Shown here: positions 15,130-21,734 of the stretch, piece after piece | Position numbering within the stretch: position 1 is the stretch's first letter | Layout: every line of letters begins with the position of its first letter | Origin: an uncultured Clostridia bacterium | GTDB taxonomy: Bacteria; Bacillota; Clostridia; TANB77; CAG-508 | Direction: 5' to 3' | NCBI GenBank assembly: GCA_944386775.1 | Contig: CALXCJ010000001.1 | Location: forward strand, 19,921-83,920 | Length of the DNA stretch: 64,000 bases | The notes under the pieces: model-generated | The model's input: only the letters and a program-made list of their open reading frames with translations | What the model was told of the DNA's origin: nothing | Databases searched by the model: none | Translations under genes and position numbers: made by a program

Positions 15130-16335
15130 TTAAAAAAATACTTTTCTCATTACTCCTTTTAATAAAATTTCACATCTATGAAGTTCTTCTGGATTATTTA
15201 TATTTCTTTCAAATTCATATATCATTGATAAAAATTTACTATGTATGGATTCAAATCTCATGTCTTGCATTATTTTACTTGCATATTGTTCAAACAATTG
15301 TATATCTTTTTCCTTGTCTTTATAATTATACTTTATATGTACTAAACAATTCTTCATTTCATATAACATACTAAAAAGTTCTTGCTTTTCAGCTTCTTCT
15401 AAATTTTTAGGAGTTTCATTTAATTTTTTTAAGTTTCTTAAATCTACAAATATATTATTTCTTTCATCATTTTCTTTTTTACGTACTTCTTCCATTTCAC
15501 GCATTACACTATTTGGTGCTTCTCTCCCATTATAGTATGTACTGTAACCTTTTACAAATGAGTTTGTAGTACAAATTAGAAGTAGTTGCTCTGTTTTTTC
15601 ATAGAATTCTTGTAATAATTCTGGTCTGCCTCCTAAATTAATTCCATTCTGTTTTAGATACCAATCTTCTTTTTCGTCATCTGTTATAAATATAATATCT
15701 TTCTTTTCTTCTTTGGCTTTTTCTATCATGGATTGGAAGATATAGTAATCACCATAGTTTTCACCTTTTTTTCTGTCTTTATAACCTGGAGGAATTTTGT
15801 TTTCTTCTCTTCTTTTGGCTTCTTTTTTTATGATTTCTAATTTTTCTTCTGTTTCCTTTTTTCCACATCTATTTTCAAATAATTTTAGTATTTTATTTAA
15901 TACTATATCATTTTTTGCAAATGAGTTTTGTTGCTTTTTTTCAGTATTTATTAAGTTTGAAATTTTGCTATTTGTTCCATCTATTAATTTTATTATTTGT
16001 TCTTTACATTTTATATCTTTTTTGTCTACTTCTTGAAGCTTTCCTTTGGCTATATCTAATTGTTTATTTATTTCCGCTTCTATTTTTGTAAGTGATTCTT
16101 CTACTTTATCTATTACATTTTTTCTATTTTTAACATATTCTACACCAACTTGATATGGCATCCATATTCTGTTTTTTAAATGCTCTAAAATGGTCCACAT
16201 TGTGTTTCTTGTTTGGTCTGAATATCTATAAAAATTTAAAATTACATTTGTGTCTATTATAATAATAGAATTTTTCCATATGTTTTTATAATCTTCTTCA
16301 GTATATGGAATATAACCTCTAAACTGATTTTTCAT
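15130..16335 (-). CDS. PIN-like domain protein (DUF4935-type), last gene of the RM-like island
   Basis: 401 aa. N-terminal NSIIIIDTNVILNFYRYS is PIN-like, followed by long K/E-rich coiled-coil-like regions. Confidence 0.6.
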   Translation of the reverse strand: MKNQFRGYIPYTEEDYKNIWKNSIIIIDTNVILNFYRYSDQTRNTMWTILEHLKNRIWMPYQVGVEYVKNRKNVIDKVEESLTKIEAEINKQLDIAKGKLQEVDKKDIKCKEQIIKLIDGTNSKISNLINTEKKQQNSFAKNDIVLNKILKLFENRCGKKETEEKLEIIKKEAKRREENKIPPGYKDRKKGENYGDYYIFQSMIEKAKEEKKDIIFITDDEKEDWYLKQNGINLGGRPELLQEFYEKTEQLLLICTTNSFVKGYSTYYNGREAPNSVMREMEEVRKKENDERNNIFVDLRNLKKLNETPKNLEEAEKQELFSMLYEMKNCLVHIKYNYKDKEKDIQLFEQYASKIMQDMRFESIHSKFLSMIYEFERNINNPEELHRCEILLKGVMRKVFF

Positions 16336-16379
16336 AGCTTGTCCTCTTTTCTATATCTATCTTAATTTCTTATTAAGTT

Positions 16380-16545
16380 TTTTAATAATATTTTTTATGA
16401 TACTTTTATTATACTTTTATTATACTTTTATGATATTTTTATAATACTTCTATAATATTCTTATAATATTCTTATAATATTCTTATAATATTTTTATAAT
16501 ATTTTTATAATATTTTTTATGATATATTTTCTCTTTAATGAAATT
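16380..16545. repeat. about 14 tandem copies of an 11-12-bp unit (ttataatattc / tttttataatat) between the hsdR-like and PIN-like genes
   Basis: Read directly. Confidence 0.6.
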
Positions 16546-16594
16546 ATTTTCCATAAGTTTTTTAGCAATCTTAAAATTACATTACTTTTGTTTT

Positions 16595-19678: not shown

Positions 19679-19696
19679 AGTCCACCCCCTGTTTAT

Positions 19697-21127
19697 TTAT
19701 TTTTCTTCTAATTTTTTTAGGTAAAATTCTTTTCGTTTTTGTATTTCTTTTAATTTTTCTTCTATTTCTTGAATTTGTATTTTTAATATATCTGTATTTA
19801 TGTTTATCTTTTTTTCTTCTTCTATTACATATTTTGTCACATTTAAATTACCCTCATTTTCTAAGACCTCTTTTACAGATGCTAAGTAGCTTATACCTGA
19901 AACCGTTTTTCTTGCTTTTAGTATGTTTGTTATTTTTCCAATATGAATATCTTCAAATTTATTTTTATATCTTGTTTTTGTATATTGTTTTGAAGCATCT
20001 ATAAATAATACATCATTGTGTTTTTTATTTTTGTTAAATATTATTATACATGTTTTTATTAATGTAGTTCTAAACATATTTGCTGGTAGTAATATTATTG
20101 TTTCTATTATATTTTCCTTTAACATATTTTTTCTTATCTCTTCTTCTGTTCCTCCTCTAGACAATACCCCAAGTGGCATTATAACTACCATTTTACCAGT
20201 ATCATTTAATGAATGTAACATTGTTTGTATAAATGCATAATCTGATTTTGATGCTGGTGGGATTCCGTATTGATATATATTGTCATAGCCTAAATACATG
20301 TTTTCATTTATTATTTCTTTTATATTATTTTGTGCAGAAAATGGTAAATTTCCCACAATTAAATCAAATTTTTCCATAGAAATATTTTGGTATATTGTAT
20401 TTCCTTTGTAAAATTTTGCATCATATATATTATGTAGTAAAAAATTTAATTTACAGAAAAGTAGAATTTGTATATTATTGTCTTGCAGAGTCATTTCTAC
20501 TTTATAATTTACTTTTTTAGCAACTTGAAGTAATAATCCTCCAGATCCACAAGTTAGGTCTGCTAAATGTTCTCCTTCCTTAATATTTATAATATTTGAT
20601 ATTAGTTTTGAAACATCTGGTGGTGTAAAATCATTTTCAGAATTTATGTTTGATGTTTTTGCTTCTATATTAAAATTAAATGGAATATTTTCTATTAGTT
20701 CTATTAGTTCATTTTGTTCTTCTTTTTTTGTTATTGCTAAAAAATTAAAATTTAAAATTTCTATTATATTTCTTAGTGTTTCATTTTCTATTTTATTAAA
20801 ATCTATTTCTGTAAAAATTCCTTTTAGAATTGGGTTTAGTCTTTCAAATTGCATAAAATAATAATTTAAGAAATATCCTATACCAGGAAGTCTTATTTTT
20901 GCATATATATCTTCCCAGCTCCCTTCTATTATTATAGGTTGATTTTTCATAAGCCTTTCTATATTTTGGTGAGGATATTTTTTTTCGTATTCATTTTTTT
21001 TGTATTGTGTCGTATCAAAAATAATTTTTATATACATAAGTGAATATATGTATATTAGTTGATCTATATATTTGTATTTATTTGTTTGACTTATTAAGTC
21101 TTGTATTGTTTTAGAAATTTTATGCAT
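19697..21127 (-). CDS. hsdM: Type I restriction-modification N6-adenine DNA methyltransferase subunit (HsdM-like); motif IV reads NLPF rather than NPPF
   Basis: LADLTCGSGGLLL (motif I), VGNLPFSAQ (motif IV variant), GKMVVIMPLGVLSRGGTEEEIRKNMLKENIIETIILLPANMF (HsdM C-terminal block). Confidence 0.8.
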   Translation of the reverse strand: MHKISKTIQDLISQTNKYKYIDQLIYIYSLMYIKIIFDTTQYKKNEYEKKYPHQNIERLMKNQPIIIEGSWEDIYAKIRLPGIGYFLNYYFMQFERLNPILKGIFTEIDFNKIENETLRNIIEILNFNFLAITKKEEQNELIELIENIPFNFNIEAKTSNINSENDFTPPDVSKLISNIINIKEGEHLADLTCGSGGLLLQVAKKVNYKVEMTLQDNNIQILLFCKLNFLLHNIYDAKFYKGNTIYQNISMEKFDLIVGNLPFSAQNNIKEIINENMYLGYDNIYQYGIPPASKSDYAFIQTMLHSLNDTGKMVVIMPLGVLSRGGTEEEIRKNMLKENIIETIILLPANMFRTTLIKTCIIIFNKNKKHNDVLFIDASKQYTKTRYKNKFEDIHIGKITNILKARKTVSGISYLASVKEVLENEGNLNVTKYVIEEEKKININTDILKIQIQEIEEKLKEIQKRKEFYLKKLEEK

Positions 21128-21152
21128 AATTATATCCCTCTTCTTTTATTTT

Positions 21153-21734
21153 TTAATTTTTTATTGCTTCTTCTAATATGCTTTCAAATTCTTTTTCTTT
21201 TAACTGTATTAGTTTTTCTGATAACTTTTTTTCTTCTATATATATTTCAGCAAGTTTTGCTATTTCATATTGCTTTTCTAGTGTTGGAATTGGTATTTGT
21301 ATATTTTTTAGTGATTTTGTATTTATGGTTTCTATTACTGTTCCATTTGCTTCTTTTCTTATTTGTTCTTTTGCTTTTTCCGAATTTAAATAAATTTTTA
21401 CATATTCGGGTAGTATTTCTTCTAGTTTCATCCTTATTACTGCAATTAGTGATGGAATTAGTATGTTTTCATATTTTTTTTCAATATATACTGAGGTATA
21501 CGGATTACTTAAACGTATTAATATATCTCCTTCTTTTGTTAATAATTTGGAGTCTATTTCTGTTTTGCTGTTAAATGTATCTATTGATGAGTCGCAAATT
21601 GTTCCATCTTTTTCTATGCTTGATAATTGAAAAACACGGTAAATTTTTGCTATTTCACCTTTTGCAATTTTTCTACTTAGGACTTGTCCTGTTCGAATAT
21701 CTGCTATTTCTTCTAGTTTCATTTGTTTTGTCAT
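21153..21734 (-). CDS. hsdS: Type I restriction specificity subunit, half-size (single TRD)
   Basis: 193 aa. LEEIADIRTGQ N-terminal motif and conserved C-terminal region IPIPTLEKQYEIAKLAE. Confidence 0.75.
   Translation of the reverse strand: MTKQMKLEEIADIRTGQVLSRKIAKGEIAKIYRVFQLSSIEKDGTICDSSIDTFNSKTEIDSKLLTKEGDILIRLSNPYTSVYIEKKYENILIPSLIAVIRMKLEEILPEYVKIYLNSEKAKEQIRKEANGTVIETINTKSLKNIQIPIPTLEKQYEIAKLAEIYIEEKKLSEKLIQLKEKEFESILEEAIKN

What the first reader, a model, noticed from the sequence alone, without database searches (positions are those of the whole stretch)
15130..21734. Type I RM-derived operon (hsdS-hsdM-hsdR-like) with an HsdR homolog that appears catalytically degenerate, followed by a PIN-like DUF4935-type gene
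Three tightly packed genes encode a half-size HsdS, a well-conserved HsdM and a 1027-aa HsdR homolog. The HsdR-like protein keeps the overall architecture, but the catalytic positions I recall for HsdR read differently. The N-terminal nuclease block is PNYVVFINDIPIILVQLA versus the typical PDYVLFVNGLPLVVIELK (D to N, E to Q, K to A). The DEAH box reads SDVK, motif III is replaced by an 80-aa low-complexity insert, TGFD reads SSFEE, and motif VI QxxGR is absent. Such conservative catalytic substitutions in an intact long ORF suggest a selected non-catalytic role rather than decay. Separated by 260 bp of tandem repeats is a 401-aa PIN-like protein, a plausible alternative nuclease effector. Candidate uncharacterised defence system derived from Type I RM, inserted between veg and spoIIID.
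Basis: partly seen in the sequence, partly recalled or inferred. Interest (0 to 1): 0.8.

Follow-up and report, generated by a model that had tools for sequence, protein, structure and literature searches.

The report
Type I restriction system with dead motor
This is a rare four-gene relative of Type I restriction-modification systems. Its large "restriction" subunit has lost its motor and nuclease chemistry but is still under selection. It has gained a DNA-binding tail and is always followed by a separate nuclease gene, which suggests an undescribed way of building a bacterial defence system.

Summary
On the minus strand lie a half-size hsdS, an hsdM, a 1027-aa HsdR homologue and a PIN_8 nuclease gene, between spoIIID and veg.

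The HsdR homologue keeps the whole HsdR fold; its best structural matches are EcoR124I HsdR. That domain folds like the two solved RAMA dsDNA-binding domains, MPND and CcrM.

This is not one decayed gene. An exhaustive search found about seven clusters of the same dead-HsdR+DUF4357 protein, and all lack the ATPase motifs. Nine loci keep the downstream nuclease pairing, and seven of them show all four genes in the order S-M-R'-nuclease. Eight loci carry PIN_8. One distant locus carries an HNH nuclease in that slot.

Against a sister contig, dN/dS is 0.37 overall and 0.16 in the RAMA domain. Neutral drift would give about 42 stop codons; 0 and 1 are seen.

My best reading is a Type I-derived system in which a pseudo-HsdR scaffold links the methyltransferase core to a swappable nuclease.

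Caveats: function is untested. The local copy shows extra erosion (HsdM NLPF, a disordered insert, a repeat-filled spacer). The sister contig has lost most of the locus.

The parts
21802..21830 (-). Consensus sigma-70-type promoter (TTGACA-17-TATAAT) upstream of hsdS
   Evidence: 12 of 12 hexamer matches. It lies downstream of the spoIIID terminators (22083..22066 and 22019..21973). Consensus match only; function not shown.
21836..21900 (.). 10-bp phased A-tract repeat (6.4 copies) just upstream of the promoter
   Evidence: A role as curved DNA or an UP element is inferred.
21153..21734 (-). Half-size HsdS (193 aa; one target-recognition domain plus one conserved helix)
   Evidence: it matches one half of full-length S profiles. 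It is 52-59% identical to the S proteins of related cassettes, target-recognition domain included.
19697..21127 (-). HsdM N6-adenine methyltransferase (476 aa). The SAM motif DLTCGSGG is intact. Motif IV reads NLPF (window 20350..20339).
   Evidence: N6_Mtase 7.9e-66; relatives have NPPF; L016 has NPPY.
16595..19678 (-). Pseudo-HsdR (1027 aa): full HsdR fold, ATPase motifs II, III, V and VI lost, nuclease triad N90/Q104/A106, C-terminal RAMA-like domain
   Evidence: motifs; AF2 pLDDT 81; Foldseek top hits are EcoR124I HsdR, E about 1e-23 over about 900 columns.
19358..19417 (-). Degenerate PD-(D/E)xK block LPNYVVFINDIPIILVQLAN (aa 88-107)
18338..18544 (-). Lineage-specific disordered low-complexity insert (aa 379-447) containing a 36-bp tandem duplication (18415-18500)
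   Evidence: dN/dS in this stretch is 1.1. The insert is absent from relatives.
16598..16918 (-). DUF4357 / RAMA-like dsDNA-binding domain (aa 921-1027)
16380..16529 (.). 11-bp tandem array (13.5 copies) inside the 259-bp spacer between the R-like and PIN genes
   Evidence: It is absent from L001. In the other related loci the two genes overlap or lie 0-56 bp apart. It is not a conserved part of the system.
15130..16335 (-). PIN_8 nuclease (401 aa) with acidic residues D28, E66, D196, D220 and D224 intact
   Evidence: PIN_8 3.6e-57; these residues are invariant across 21 homologues. The C-terminal 100 or so residues are shared only with the hsd-linked subclade (coverage pattern).

Best explanation
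The locus is a Type I restriction-modification derivative built from four parts. (1) A half-size HsdS, acting as a dimer, and HsdM form the sequence-recognising methyltransferase core. (2) The HsdR homologue is a pseudo-enzyme. It keeps the HsdR fold and presumably still docks on the methyltransferase core. It cannot hydrolyse ATP, so it cannot translocate DNA, and it has no working PD-(D/E)xK site. (3) It carries an added C-terminal RAMA-type dsDNA-binding domain. (4) A separately encoded nuclease supplies the cleavage: PIN_8 here, HNH in a distant relative.

My proposed mechanism is as follows. The M/S core marks host sites by N6-adenine methylation. On unmethylated foreign DNA, the core and the pseudo-HsdR with its RAMA domain hold the DNA and recruit or switch on the partner nuclease near the site, without translocation.

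Shown here: the gene content; loss of the motifs across the whole family; the HsdR and RAMA folds (predicted structures); conserved gene order with a swappable nuclease slot; and purifying selection.

Inferred: complex formation, methylation-gated activation, the substrate (DNA or RNA), and a defence role.
For: - **Fold.** The predicted structure best matches EcoR124I HsdR along its full length.
- **Motif loss across the family.** All 10 compared members lack DExH, TGTP, TGFD and the motif VI arginines. None keeps the lysine of ExK. The Walker A lysine is itself variable.
- **Rarity.** The family has only 7 clusters at E<1e-30 among 1.84 billion representatives.
- **Conserved linkage.** Gene order is S-M-R'-nuclease, and in relatives the nuclease gene overlaps the R' stop or follows it within 0-56 bp. 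It is seen in the window, L003, L005, L006/L007, L011, L013, L014 and L017 with PIN_8 and in L016 with HNH. A more distant PIN_8 protein (P0071) is not linked to hsd genes.
- **Selection.** dN/dS is 0.37 overall and 0.16 in the RAMA domain, against 0.05-0.09 for veg, yabG and spoIIID. Neutral simulation expects about 42 stops; 0 and 1 are observed.
- **Methyltransferase.** The catalytic motif is kept in relatives as NPPF or NPPY, which fits a need for self-protection.
- **Effectors.** The PIN acidic residues are intact. HNH enzymes are typically DNases, which favours a DNA target.
- **Expression signals.** A consensus promoter lies upstream of hsdS, and no terminator-like site lies inside the cassette except one weak plus-strand hit.
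Against: - There is no experimental evidence for defence, methylation or complex formation.
- PIN_8 belongs to the VapC-like structural group (PMC5499597), whose characterised members are mostly RNases. DNA cleavage by the PIN is therefore not the default expectation.
- The S subunit, target-recognition domain included, is the most conserved protein of the family. That is unlike classical restriction systems, which diversify their specificity.
- This copy carries extra changes not seen in relatives: N/Q/A in the nuclease block, HsdM NLPF, a disordered insert, and a 259-bp repeat-filled spacer that uncouples PIN from R'.
- The sister contig L001 has lost S, M, the R' N-terminus and most of PIN, so the system is dispensable and may be eroding in this lineage.
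- The HNH variant rests on a single locus.
- No docking domain shared by the PIN and HNH proteins was detectable by BLASTP.
Confidence: 0.5

Rival explanations
1. Guard or decoy system, like Ronin or EcoprrI-PrrC. The M/S/pseudo-R complex no longer restricts DNA. Instead it holds the PIN (or HNH) toxin inactive. Phage anti-restriction proteins such as Ocr or ArdA-type DNA mimics bind the Type I-like complex and release the nuclease, which then kills or arrests the cell (abortive infection).
For: - There are precedents. Ronin is an hsdS-hsdM pair that lost hsdR and gained a tightly linked toxin triggered by Ocr and ArdA; its methyltransferase activity is not needed (bioRxiv 10.1101/2023.04.06.535777). 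PrrC is a latent anticodon nuclease embedded in a Type IC locus (PMC12707154).
- PIN_8 is VapC-like, which fits an RNase toxin.
- A dead motor and nuclease is what a decoy would look like.
- An S subunit conserved through its target-recognition domain fits a bait that need not diversify its specificity.
Against: - The added RAMA dsDNA-binding domain is the most constrained part of R' (dN/dS 0.16). That points to DNA engagement rather than mere bait.
- The methyltransferase catalytic motif is retained in relatives.
- The alternative effector is HNH, usually a DNase.
- Retaining about 1000 aa of HsdR scaffold across the family is costly for a decoy. Ronin simply lost hsdR.
Confidence: 0.22
2. 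Eroding remnant. In this genome the cassette is a Type I-derived system on its way to loss. The ORFs are still open, but the system is no longer functional as a unit. It may survive only as an orphan methyltransferase, or as nothing.
For: - Several changes are unique to the window copy: N/Q/A where relatives keep D and E, HsdM NLPF, and an insert of about 70 aa evolving neutrally (dN/dS 1.1).
- The R'-PIN junction is split by a 259-bp spacer with a tandem array.
- The sister contig L001 has deleted S, M and the first 197 or so codons of R', carries a TAA in R', and has two internal deletions in PIN.
Against: - All four ORFs are intact in 23% GC DNA, where stop codons arise quickly. Even 2% neutral divergence would give about 4.5 stops in R'.
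- A perfect consensus promoter is present.
- The PIN catalytic residues are intact.
- N-for-D and Q-for-E are isosteric changes that fit a preserved fold.
- N(L/I)PY-type motif IV occurs in active KsgA/Erm adenine methyltransferases (my own knowledge, not tested here).
- The losses in L001 are recent, with only one stop after a dS of about 0.58.
Confidence: 0.15
3. The pieces are unrelated: an orphan M/S epigenetic methyltransferase, a degenerate hsdR pseudogene, and an independent stand-alone PIN toxin that merely sit next to each other.
For: The 259-bp spacer could allow independent PIN expression. Distant PIN_8 proteins occur alone on mobile elements. Matelska et al. found DUF4935 genes to be usually monocistronic.
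Against: The same four-gene order recurs in at least seven independent contigs from genomes of 22-31% GC. In these the PIN gene usually abuts or overlaps the R' gene. R' is under purifying selection.
Confidence: 0.03

Closest known systems
Canonical Type I restriction-modification systems (HsdR2M2S1, e.g. EcoR124I, EcoKI)
   Same: Homologous S, M and R genes in one operon. The R' protein has the complete HsdR domain layout: nuclease-like, RecA1, RecA2, helical and C-terminal. HsdM keeps the N6-adenine methyltransferase motifs.
   Different: R' lacks helicase motifs II, III, V and VI and the ExK lysine, so it has neither an ATP-driven translocase nor a PD-(D/E)xK nuclease. It has an extra RAMA domain. 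A separate PIN_8 or HNH gene is obligatorily linked. S is half-size, and its target-recognition domain is conserved rather than hypervariable.
Ronin (hsdS-hsdM plus ronA decoy system; Silas et al., bioRxiv 10.1101/2023.04.06.535777)
   Same: A Type I derivative that has given up HsdR-mediated restriction and is tightly linked to a different effector gene.
   Different: Ronin has no HsdR at all, and its effector is a 61-aa membrane protein. Here a roughly 1000-aa pseudo-HsdR is retained under selection, and the effector is a nuclease. No ronA-like gene is present.
EcoprrI-PrrC (and RloC) anticodon nucleases embedded in Type IC loci
   Same: A second nuclease encoded inside or next to an hsd operon, thought to be controlled by the Type I complex (PMC12707154).
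   Different: EcoprrI is a fully active Type I enzyme. PrrC is an ABC-ATPase-like anticodon nuclease, not a PIN, and it lies between hsd genes. NCBIfam and PADLOC gave no PrrC-type match.
RAMA/DUF4357 fusion nucleases and methyltransferases (GIY-YIG-RAMA, RAMA-Mrr-NTPase, McrB- and GmrSD-linked DUF4357, CcrM; PADLOC candidate PDC-S14)
   Same: The same C-terminal domain, which is recurrently attached to restriction-type nucleases and N6A methyltransferases (PMC4738411, PMC4619093, PMC11090510, PMC11037411).
   Different: Those are single-protein fusions to active nucleases or NTPases. Fusion to a catalytically dead HsdR inside an S-M-R'-nuclease operon did not appear in any paper I could find.
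PIN-like nucleases next to Type I subunits noted by Matelska et al. 2017 (PMC5499597)
   Same: That survey reports PIN-like genes transcriptionally coupled to hsdM and hsdS, including three operons without a clear restriction subunit.
   Different: PIN_8 is listed there as function unknown. No pseudo-HsdR or DUF4357 partner is described. Those arrangements were reported as not conserved between related species, whereas this one is.

Membership tests
Type I restriction-modification system | HsdS specificity subunit with target-recognition domain(s) | tested here: met
   Methylase_S 35.9 bits against a cut-off of 22. PADLOC Specificity_I matches down to 2.8e-19 cover half of each profile. It is half-size, with a single target-recognition domain.
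Type I restriction-modification system | HsdM with SAM-binding motif I and catalytic motif IV (NPPF/Y/W) | tested here: inconclusive
   N6_Mtase 222.9 bits and motif I DLTCGSGG are intact. Motif IV reads NLPF here, against NPPF or NPPY in relatives. Activity was not tested.
Type I restriction-modification system | HsdR with SF2 helicase ATPase motifs (Walker A, DExH, III, V, VI) | tested here: not met
   DExH reads SDVK, TGTP is absent, TGFD reads SSFEE, QxxxRxxR reads QMKEILSK, and Walker A reads GTGKN. TIGR00348 scores 75.9 bits against a cut-off of 284.55.
Type I restriction-modification system | HsdR N-terminal PD-(D/E)xK nuclease triad | tested here: not met
   N90, Q104 and A106 replace D, E and K. 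Pfam HSDR_N gave no hit at E<=0.1.
HsdR fold (structural family) | Overall four- to five-domain HsdR architecture | tested here: met
   AF2 model with pLDDT 81. Foldseek top 15 hits are all EcoR124I HsdR, E 9e-24 to 1e-19, over about 900-1100 aligned columns.
RAMA / DUF4357 domain | Sequence match to PF14267 and the fold of solved RAMA domains | tested here: met
RAMA / DUF4357 domain | Discrimination of N6-methyladenine in DNA | not testable with these tools
   Predicted by Iyer et al. (PMC4738411). Not confirmed for MPND (PMC9963953).
PIN_8 (PF18476) PIN-like nucleases | Profile match above the Pfam threshold and conserved acidic active-site residues | tested here: met
   194.3 bits against a cut-off of 26.1. 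D28, E66, D196, D220 and D224 are invariant in 21 homologues and present here.
Ronin | hsdS and hsdM with a linked small ronA membrane toxin and no hsdR | tested here: not met
   An hsdR homologue is present, and no small transmembrane ORF sits in the cassette. The effector is a 401-aa PIN.
PrrC/RloC-type RM-linked anticodon nuclease | ABC-ATPase-like N-domain plus anticodon-nuclease C-domain, embedded in an active Type IC locus | tested here: not met
   No such family appears among the Pfam, NCBIfam or PADLOC hits of the four proteins. The HsdR homologue is inactive.
MADS (methylation-associated defence system) | mad2 and mad5 equivalogs above the NCBIfam cut-offs, plus the other mad genes | tested here: not met
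   MADS2 scores 52.1 bits against a cut-off of 720, and MADS5 scores 42.2 against 400. These reflect only generic methyltransferase and S-subunit similarity.

The most novel reading that the evidence does not exclude
This is a previously undescribed class of Type I-derived immune system. A pseudo-HsdR that is ATPase-dead and nuclease-dead, and tipped with a RAMA domain, acts as an adaptor. It couples a methyltransferase/specificity core with a fixed, non-diversifying specificity to interchangeable stand-alone nucleases (PIN_8 or HNH). The result is either translocation-independent restriction or nuclease activation gated by methylation state or by anti-restriction proteins.
Probability: 0.5. 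Interest if true: 0.8.

Novelty: new variant of a known kind. Interest (0 to 1): 0.72.

Why it matters
Type I enzymes are the textbook case of restriction by ATP-driven DNA translocation. Here a conserved lineage has kept the HsdR scaffold under selection but discarded both its motor and its nuclease. It has added a dsDNA-binding RAMA domain and handed cleavage to a swappable partner nuclease.

If this holds, three things follow:
1. HsdR would be shown to work as a pure adaptor, a pseudo-enzyme.
2. It would be a natural example of the effector being exchanged in a restriction system.
3. It would give a tractable system for asking what RAMA domains sense. Their proposed role as readers of N6-methyladenine is still disputed.

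It would also assign a first functional context to the PIN_8 family, which is currently listed as function unknown.

The family is very rare. It has about seven clusters among 1.84 billion representatives, all from low-GC Clostridia assembled from metagenomes, and none carries any annotation.

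Tried and rejected
- **Word-indexed search with the R' protein.** It found only the protein itself, one 61%-identical fragment and canonical HsdRs. 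That wrongly suggested an orphan. The exhaustive search and the contexts of PIN homologues corrected this.
- **PDB sequence search.** No HsdR hit. Structure prediction and Foldseek were needed.
- **PADLOC.** No model matches the PIN. R' matches only through its DUF4357 tail (PDC-S14, PDC-S57). No known or candidate system fits the cassette.
- **Scans of JGI metagenome contigs and IMG/VR viral contigs with the family alignment.** No relatives were found, so there is no evidence for carriage by phages.
- **GTDB genome scan.** Only two loci, both uncultured Clostridia genomes assembled from metagenomes.
- **Search for a second, intact hsdR in the window.** None found.
- **Shared docking domain between the PIN and HNH partners.** BLASTP found nothing.
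- **Rfam scan of 14500-22500.** Only two sub-threshold microRNA-family matches outside the cassette genes, so no RNA element in the spacer.
- **Flanking direct repeats that would mark a recent insertion.** None found.
I re-ran it with A5.
- **AFDB fold library** was not available.
- **One literature search** was wasted on the plant PIN8 auxin carrier.
- **Other literature searches.** No paper describes an HsdR-DUF4357/RAMA fusion or an S-M-R'-PIN_8 operon.
- **Cluster look-up.** None of the relatives carries a name from any source.

Full report
**What is in the window.**

Four ORFs lie head to tail on the minus strand between spoIIID (22345..22082) and veg (14727..15038):
- a 193-aa HsdS (21734..21153);
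- a 476-aa HsdM (21127..19697);
- a 1027-aa HsdR homologue, called R' below (19678..16595);
- after a 259-bp spacer, a 401-aa PIN protein (16335..15130).

Family scans gave these results:
- S matches Methylase_S, and it covers only one half of full-length S profiles.
- M matches N6_Mtase (7.9e-66).
- The PIN protein matches PIN_8 (3.6e-57). It also matches PIN_12, formerly DUF4935, more weakly.
- R' matches the NCBIfam hsdR model only over residues 34-304, at 75.9 bits against a cut-off of 284.55.
- R' also matches Pfam DUF4357 at residues 974-1022 (60.5 bits, cut-off 38.4).

A perfect TTGACA-17-TATAAT promoter lies upstream of hsdS, behind the spoIIID terminators. The window holds no second hsdR. 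Contig L002 is the same sequence as the window (99.99% identity).

**The catalytic positions.**

I aligned R' to canonical HsdRs recovered in the searches.

| Motif | Canonical HsdR | This protein |
|---|---|---|
| Nuclease block | RPD...ELK | LPN90...Q104LA106 |
| Walker A | GSGKS | GTGKN |
| Motif II | DE[AC]H | SDVK |
| Motif III | TGTP | absent |
| Motif V | TGFD | SSFEE |
| Motif VI | QAIARVNR | QMKEILSK |

One detail is wrong. The low-complexity insert (about aa 379-447) does not replace motif III. It lies after it, in the RecA1-RecA2 linker. It contains a 36-bp tandem duplication, is disordered in the model, and is absent from relatives.

HsdM is not perfectly conserved either. Motif IV reads NLPF here, whereas every relative has NPPF or NPPY.

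**R' still has the HsdR fold.**

An AlphaFold2 model built from a 22-sequence alignment has mean pLDDT 81 and pTM 0.64. Its 15 best Foldseek matches in the PDB are all EcoR124I HsdR, with E from 9e-24 to 1e-19 over about 900-1100 aligned columns. The nuclease-like domain, both RecA-like domains and the helical domain are therefore retained without their chemistry.

**The C-terminal domain is RAMA-like.**

According to PMC9963953, MPND and CcrM are the only solved RAMA structures. Both contact the dsDNA backbone without sequence specificity. In that study 6mA did not change MPND binding.

Iyer, Zhang and Aravind (PMC4738411) defined RAMA by its fusion to restriction nucleases and N6A methyltransferases and predicted that it discriminates m6A. 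That prediction remains unproven (PMC11037411). DUF4357 has the same partners: GIY-YIG, T5orf172, GmrSD and McrB (PMC4619093, PMC11090510). Pfam RAMA and DUF4357 hits also overlap on the same residues in two multi-copy proteins.

**This is a family, not a single decayed gene.**

The word-indexed search found almost nothing. The exhaustive HMMER search of 1.84 billion representatives found seven clusters at E<1e-30 with the same full-length architecture.

Every member lacks motifs II, III, V and VI, and none has the ExK lysine. Walker A GxGK[ST] survives in only some members. Relatives keep the D and E of the nuclease motif; only the window copy reads N and Q.

**The gene order is conserved and the nuclease slot is swappable.**

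I looked up the contigs of the closest PIN homologues (44-55% identity, 389-403 aa). Each one with enough sequence shows the same order: half-size S, M, R'+DUF4357, PIN_8. These are:
- L003;
- L005, which is cut at the 5' end;
- L006/L007;
- L011;
- L013;
- L014, from a GTDB "uncultured Clostridium sp." genome;
- L017.

In these loci the PIN gene overlaps the R' stop codon or starts 0-56 bp after it. The cassettes range from 22 to 31% GC and sit in different neighbourhoods. A more distant 486-aa PIN_8 protein is not linked to hsd genes.

The most divergent R' is P0162 (25-29% identity). It is a singleton whose next relatives are canonical HsdRs. It sits in the same S-M-R' arrangement, but it is followed by a 308-aa HNH nuclease that overlaps the R' stop by 17 nt. 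Exchange of the downstream nuclease is the strongest single argument that this position holds the system's effector.

**Selection.**

Contig L001 comes from a sister organism (veg protein 97% identical, about 84% nucleotide identity). It carries the same locus next to veg in a degraded state:
- hsdS, hsdM and the first 197 or so codons of R' are deleted;
- R' carries one TAA stop;
- PIN has two internal deletions.

The surviving 780 codons allow a Nei-Gojobori comparison. Overall dN/dS is 0.37, against 0.05-0.09 for veg, yabG and spoIIID.

| Region of R' | dN/dS |
|---|---|
| RecA1-like | 0.33 |
| Insert | 1.1 |
| RecA2-like | 0.30 |
| Helical | 0.47 |
| RAMA | 0.16 |

A composition-matched neutral simulation at the observed 23% divergence yields about 42 stop codons. 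Even 2% divergence yields about 4.5. The window copy has none and L001 has one.

The catalytic losses are shared by both copies, and by the whole family. The protein therefore evolved under purifying selection long after losing catalysis. The decay in L001 is recent.

**Interpretation.**

I conclude that this is a Type I-derived system in which HsdR has become a pseudo-enzyme scaffold. I commit to the following model.
1. A dimer of the half-size S, together with M, recognises and methylates a symmetric site.
2. R' docks on this core as HsdR does, and grips DNA with its inert RecA-like domains and its RAMA tail.
3. On unmethylated DNA, R' recruits or activates the partner nuclease close to the site, without translocation.

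In favour of a DNA-directed, methylation-gated mechanism:
- the methyltransferase motifs are retained in relatives;
- the RAMA domain is the most constrained part of R';
- the alternative effector is HNH.

The main rival is a guard or decoy mechanism like Ronin or PrrC, in which anti-restriction proteins release a PIN toxin. The VapC-like nature of PIN_8 and the conserved S subunit fit this rival.

A third possibility is that the local copy is eroding. It alone has N/Q/A, NLPF, the neutral insert and a 259-bp spacer carrying an 11-bp x 13.5 array. That array is absent from L001 and from the other relatives.

**An unexpected feature.**

Across five loci the mean pairwise identities are as follows:

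| Protein | Mean pairwise identity |
|---|---|
| S | 59% |
| PIN | 51.5% |
| M | 48.5% |
| R' | 38% |

The same ranking holds against the HNH locus: S 38-41%, M 32-35%, R' 25-29%. The similarity runs through the target-recognition domain. Ordinary Type I families show the reverse, with conserved M and R and hypervariable target-recognition domains (established knowledge). The family seems to keep one specificity, which does not fit classical restriction that diversifies its targets. I cannot explain this.

**Comparison with what is known.**

- The cassette fails two defining features of a Type I restriction enzyme, the SF2 ATPase motifs and the PD-(D/E)xK triad, so it is not a canonical member.
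- It is not Ronin, because it has an HsdR homologue and no ronA.
- It is not PrrC-type.
- PADLOC has no model for the PIN, and it matches R' only through DUF4357.
- Matelska et al. list PIN_8 as function unknown. They note scattered, non-conserved PIN-hsdM/S neighbourhoods.
- None of the literature searches found an HsdR-DUF4357/RAMA fusion or this operon.

I rate it a new variant of a known kind. It is clearly descended from Type I R-M, but its architecture and implied mechanism have not been described.

**Limits.**

Everything functional is inferred. The family is tiny and known only from metagenome assemblies, some at low coverage (L001 at 2.4x, so its single stop codon could be a sequencing error). 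The HNH variant is one locus. Complex formation could not be modelled with the tools available.

Noticed in passing
window 21153-21734, compared with L003, L006, L013, L014 and L016: The half-size S subunit, target-recognition domain included, is the best-conserved protein of the cassette. Mean pairwise identity is S 59%, PIN 51.5%, M 48.5% and R' 38%. This is the reverse of ordinary Type I systems.
   Followed up: partly
window 20339-20350 (minus strand): HsdM catalytic motif IV reads NLPF (AAT TTA CCA TTT). All relatives have NPPF or NPPY. Whether the methyltransferase is active is unknown.
   Followed up: partly
window 16380-16529: An 11-bp tandem array (13.5 copies, TATTATAAAAA / TATTATAAGAA) lies in the R'-PIN spacer. 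The sister contig L001 has a 121-bp A-rich spacer without the array, and the other related loci have 0-56 bp or overlapping genes. The period is close to one helical turn, so the DNA is probably curved. No Rfam hit.
   Followed up: partly
window 21836-21900: A 10-bp phased A-tract repeat (6.4 copies) lies directly upstream of the perfect TTGACA-17-TATAAT promoter of hsdS.
   Followed up: no
window 21414-21431 and 21705-21722: A perfect 18-nt direct repeat lies inside hsdS, 291 nt apart. Both copies encode MKLEEI. Relatives do not have the second copy. My rough estimate of the chance expectation is about 0.06.
   Followed up: no
L001 1-4219: The sister-species contig has the locus in a decayed state. 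S, M and about 197 codons of R' are deleted flush against the spoIIID stop. R' carries a TAA where the window has GAA. PIN is reduced to 65-aa and 38-aa remnants. The first 60 or so nt of the contig do not match spoIIID, so the contig end may be chimeric. Coverage is only 2.4x.
   Followed up: yes
L016 4937-11764: This distant cassette has an HNH nuclease in place of PIN_8. It is followed by a NERD plus topoisomerase-type zinc-ribbon protein (245 aa), which may be a further defence-related gene.
   Followed up: partly
L003 2516-3025; L011 1664-2179; L014 4601-5116; L016 3407-3973: A NUDIX hydrolase gene lies shortly upstream of the cassette in three otherwise different contexts. In L003, L011 and L014, acetyltransferase genes also flank the cassette.
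   Followed up: no
window 13651-22345, compared with L007 1-7573: The cassette sits beside the spoIIID-yabG-veg cluster in two divergent genomes (YabG 66% and SpoIIID 88% identical). It lies on different sides of spoIIID and in different relative orientation.
   Followed up: partly
window 23703-24059 (minus strand): A MazF/PemK-type toxin ORF (118 aa) lies about 1.4 kb upstream of spoIIID. No obvious small antitoxin ORF was examined.
   Followed up: no
window 22484-23521 (minus strand): A 345-aa acidic, Asn-rich low-complexity protein ends in LPKTG plus a hydrophobic tail, which looks like a sortase-anchored surface protein. It lies between spoIIID and the MazF-like gene.
   Followed up: no
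window 21967-22025: A 27-nt-arm near-perfect inverted repeat followed by a T-run lies downstream of spoIIID. It is an unusually long terminator-like hairpin, in addition to a shorter one at 22066-22083.
   Followed up: no
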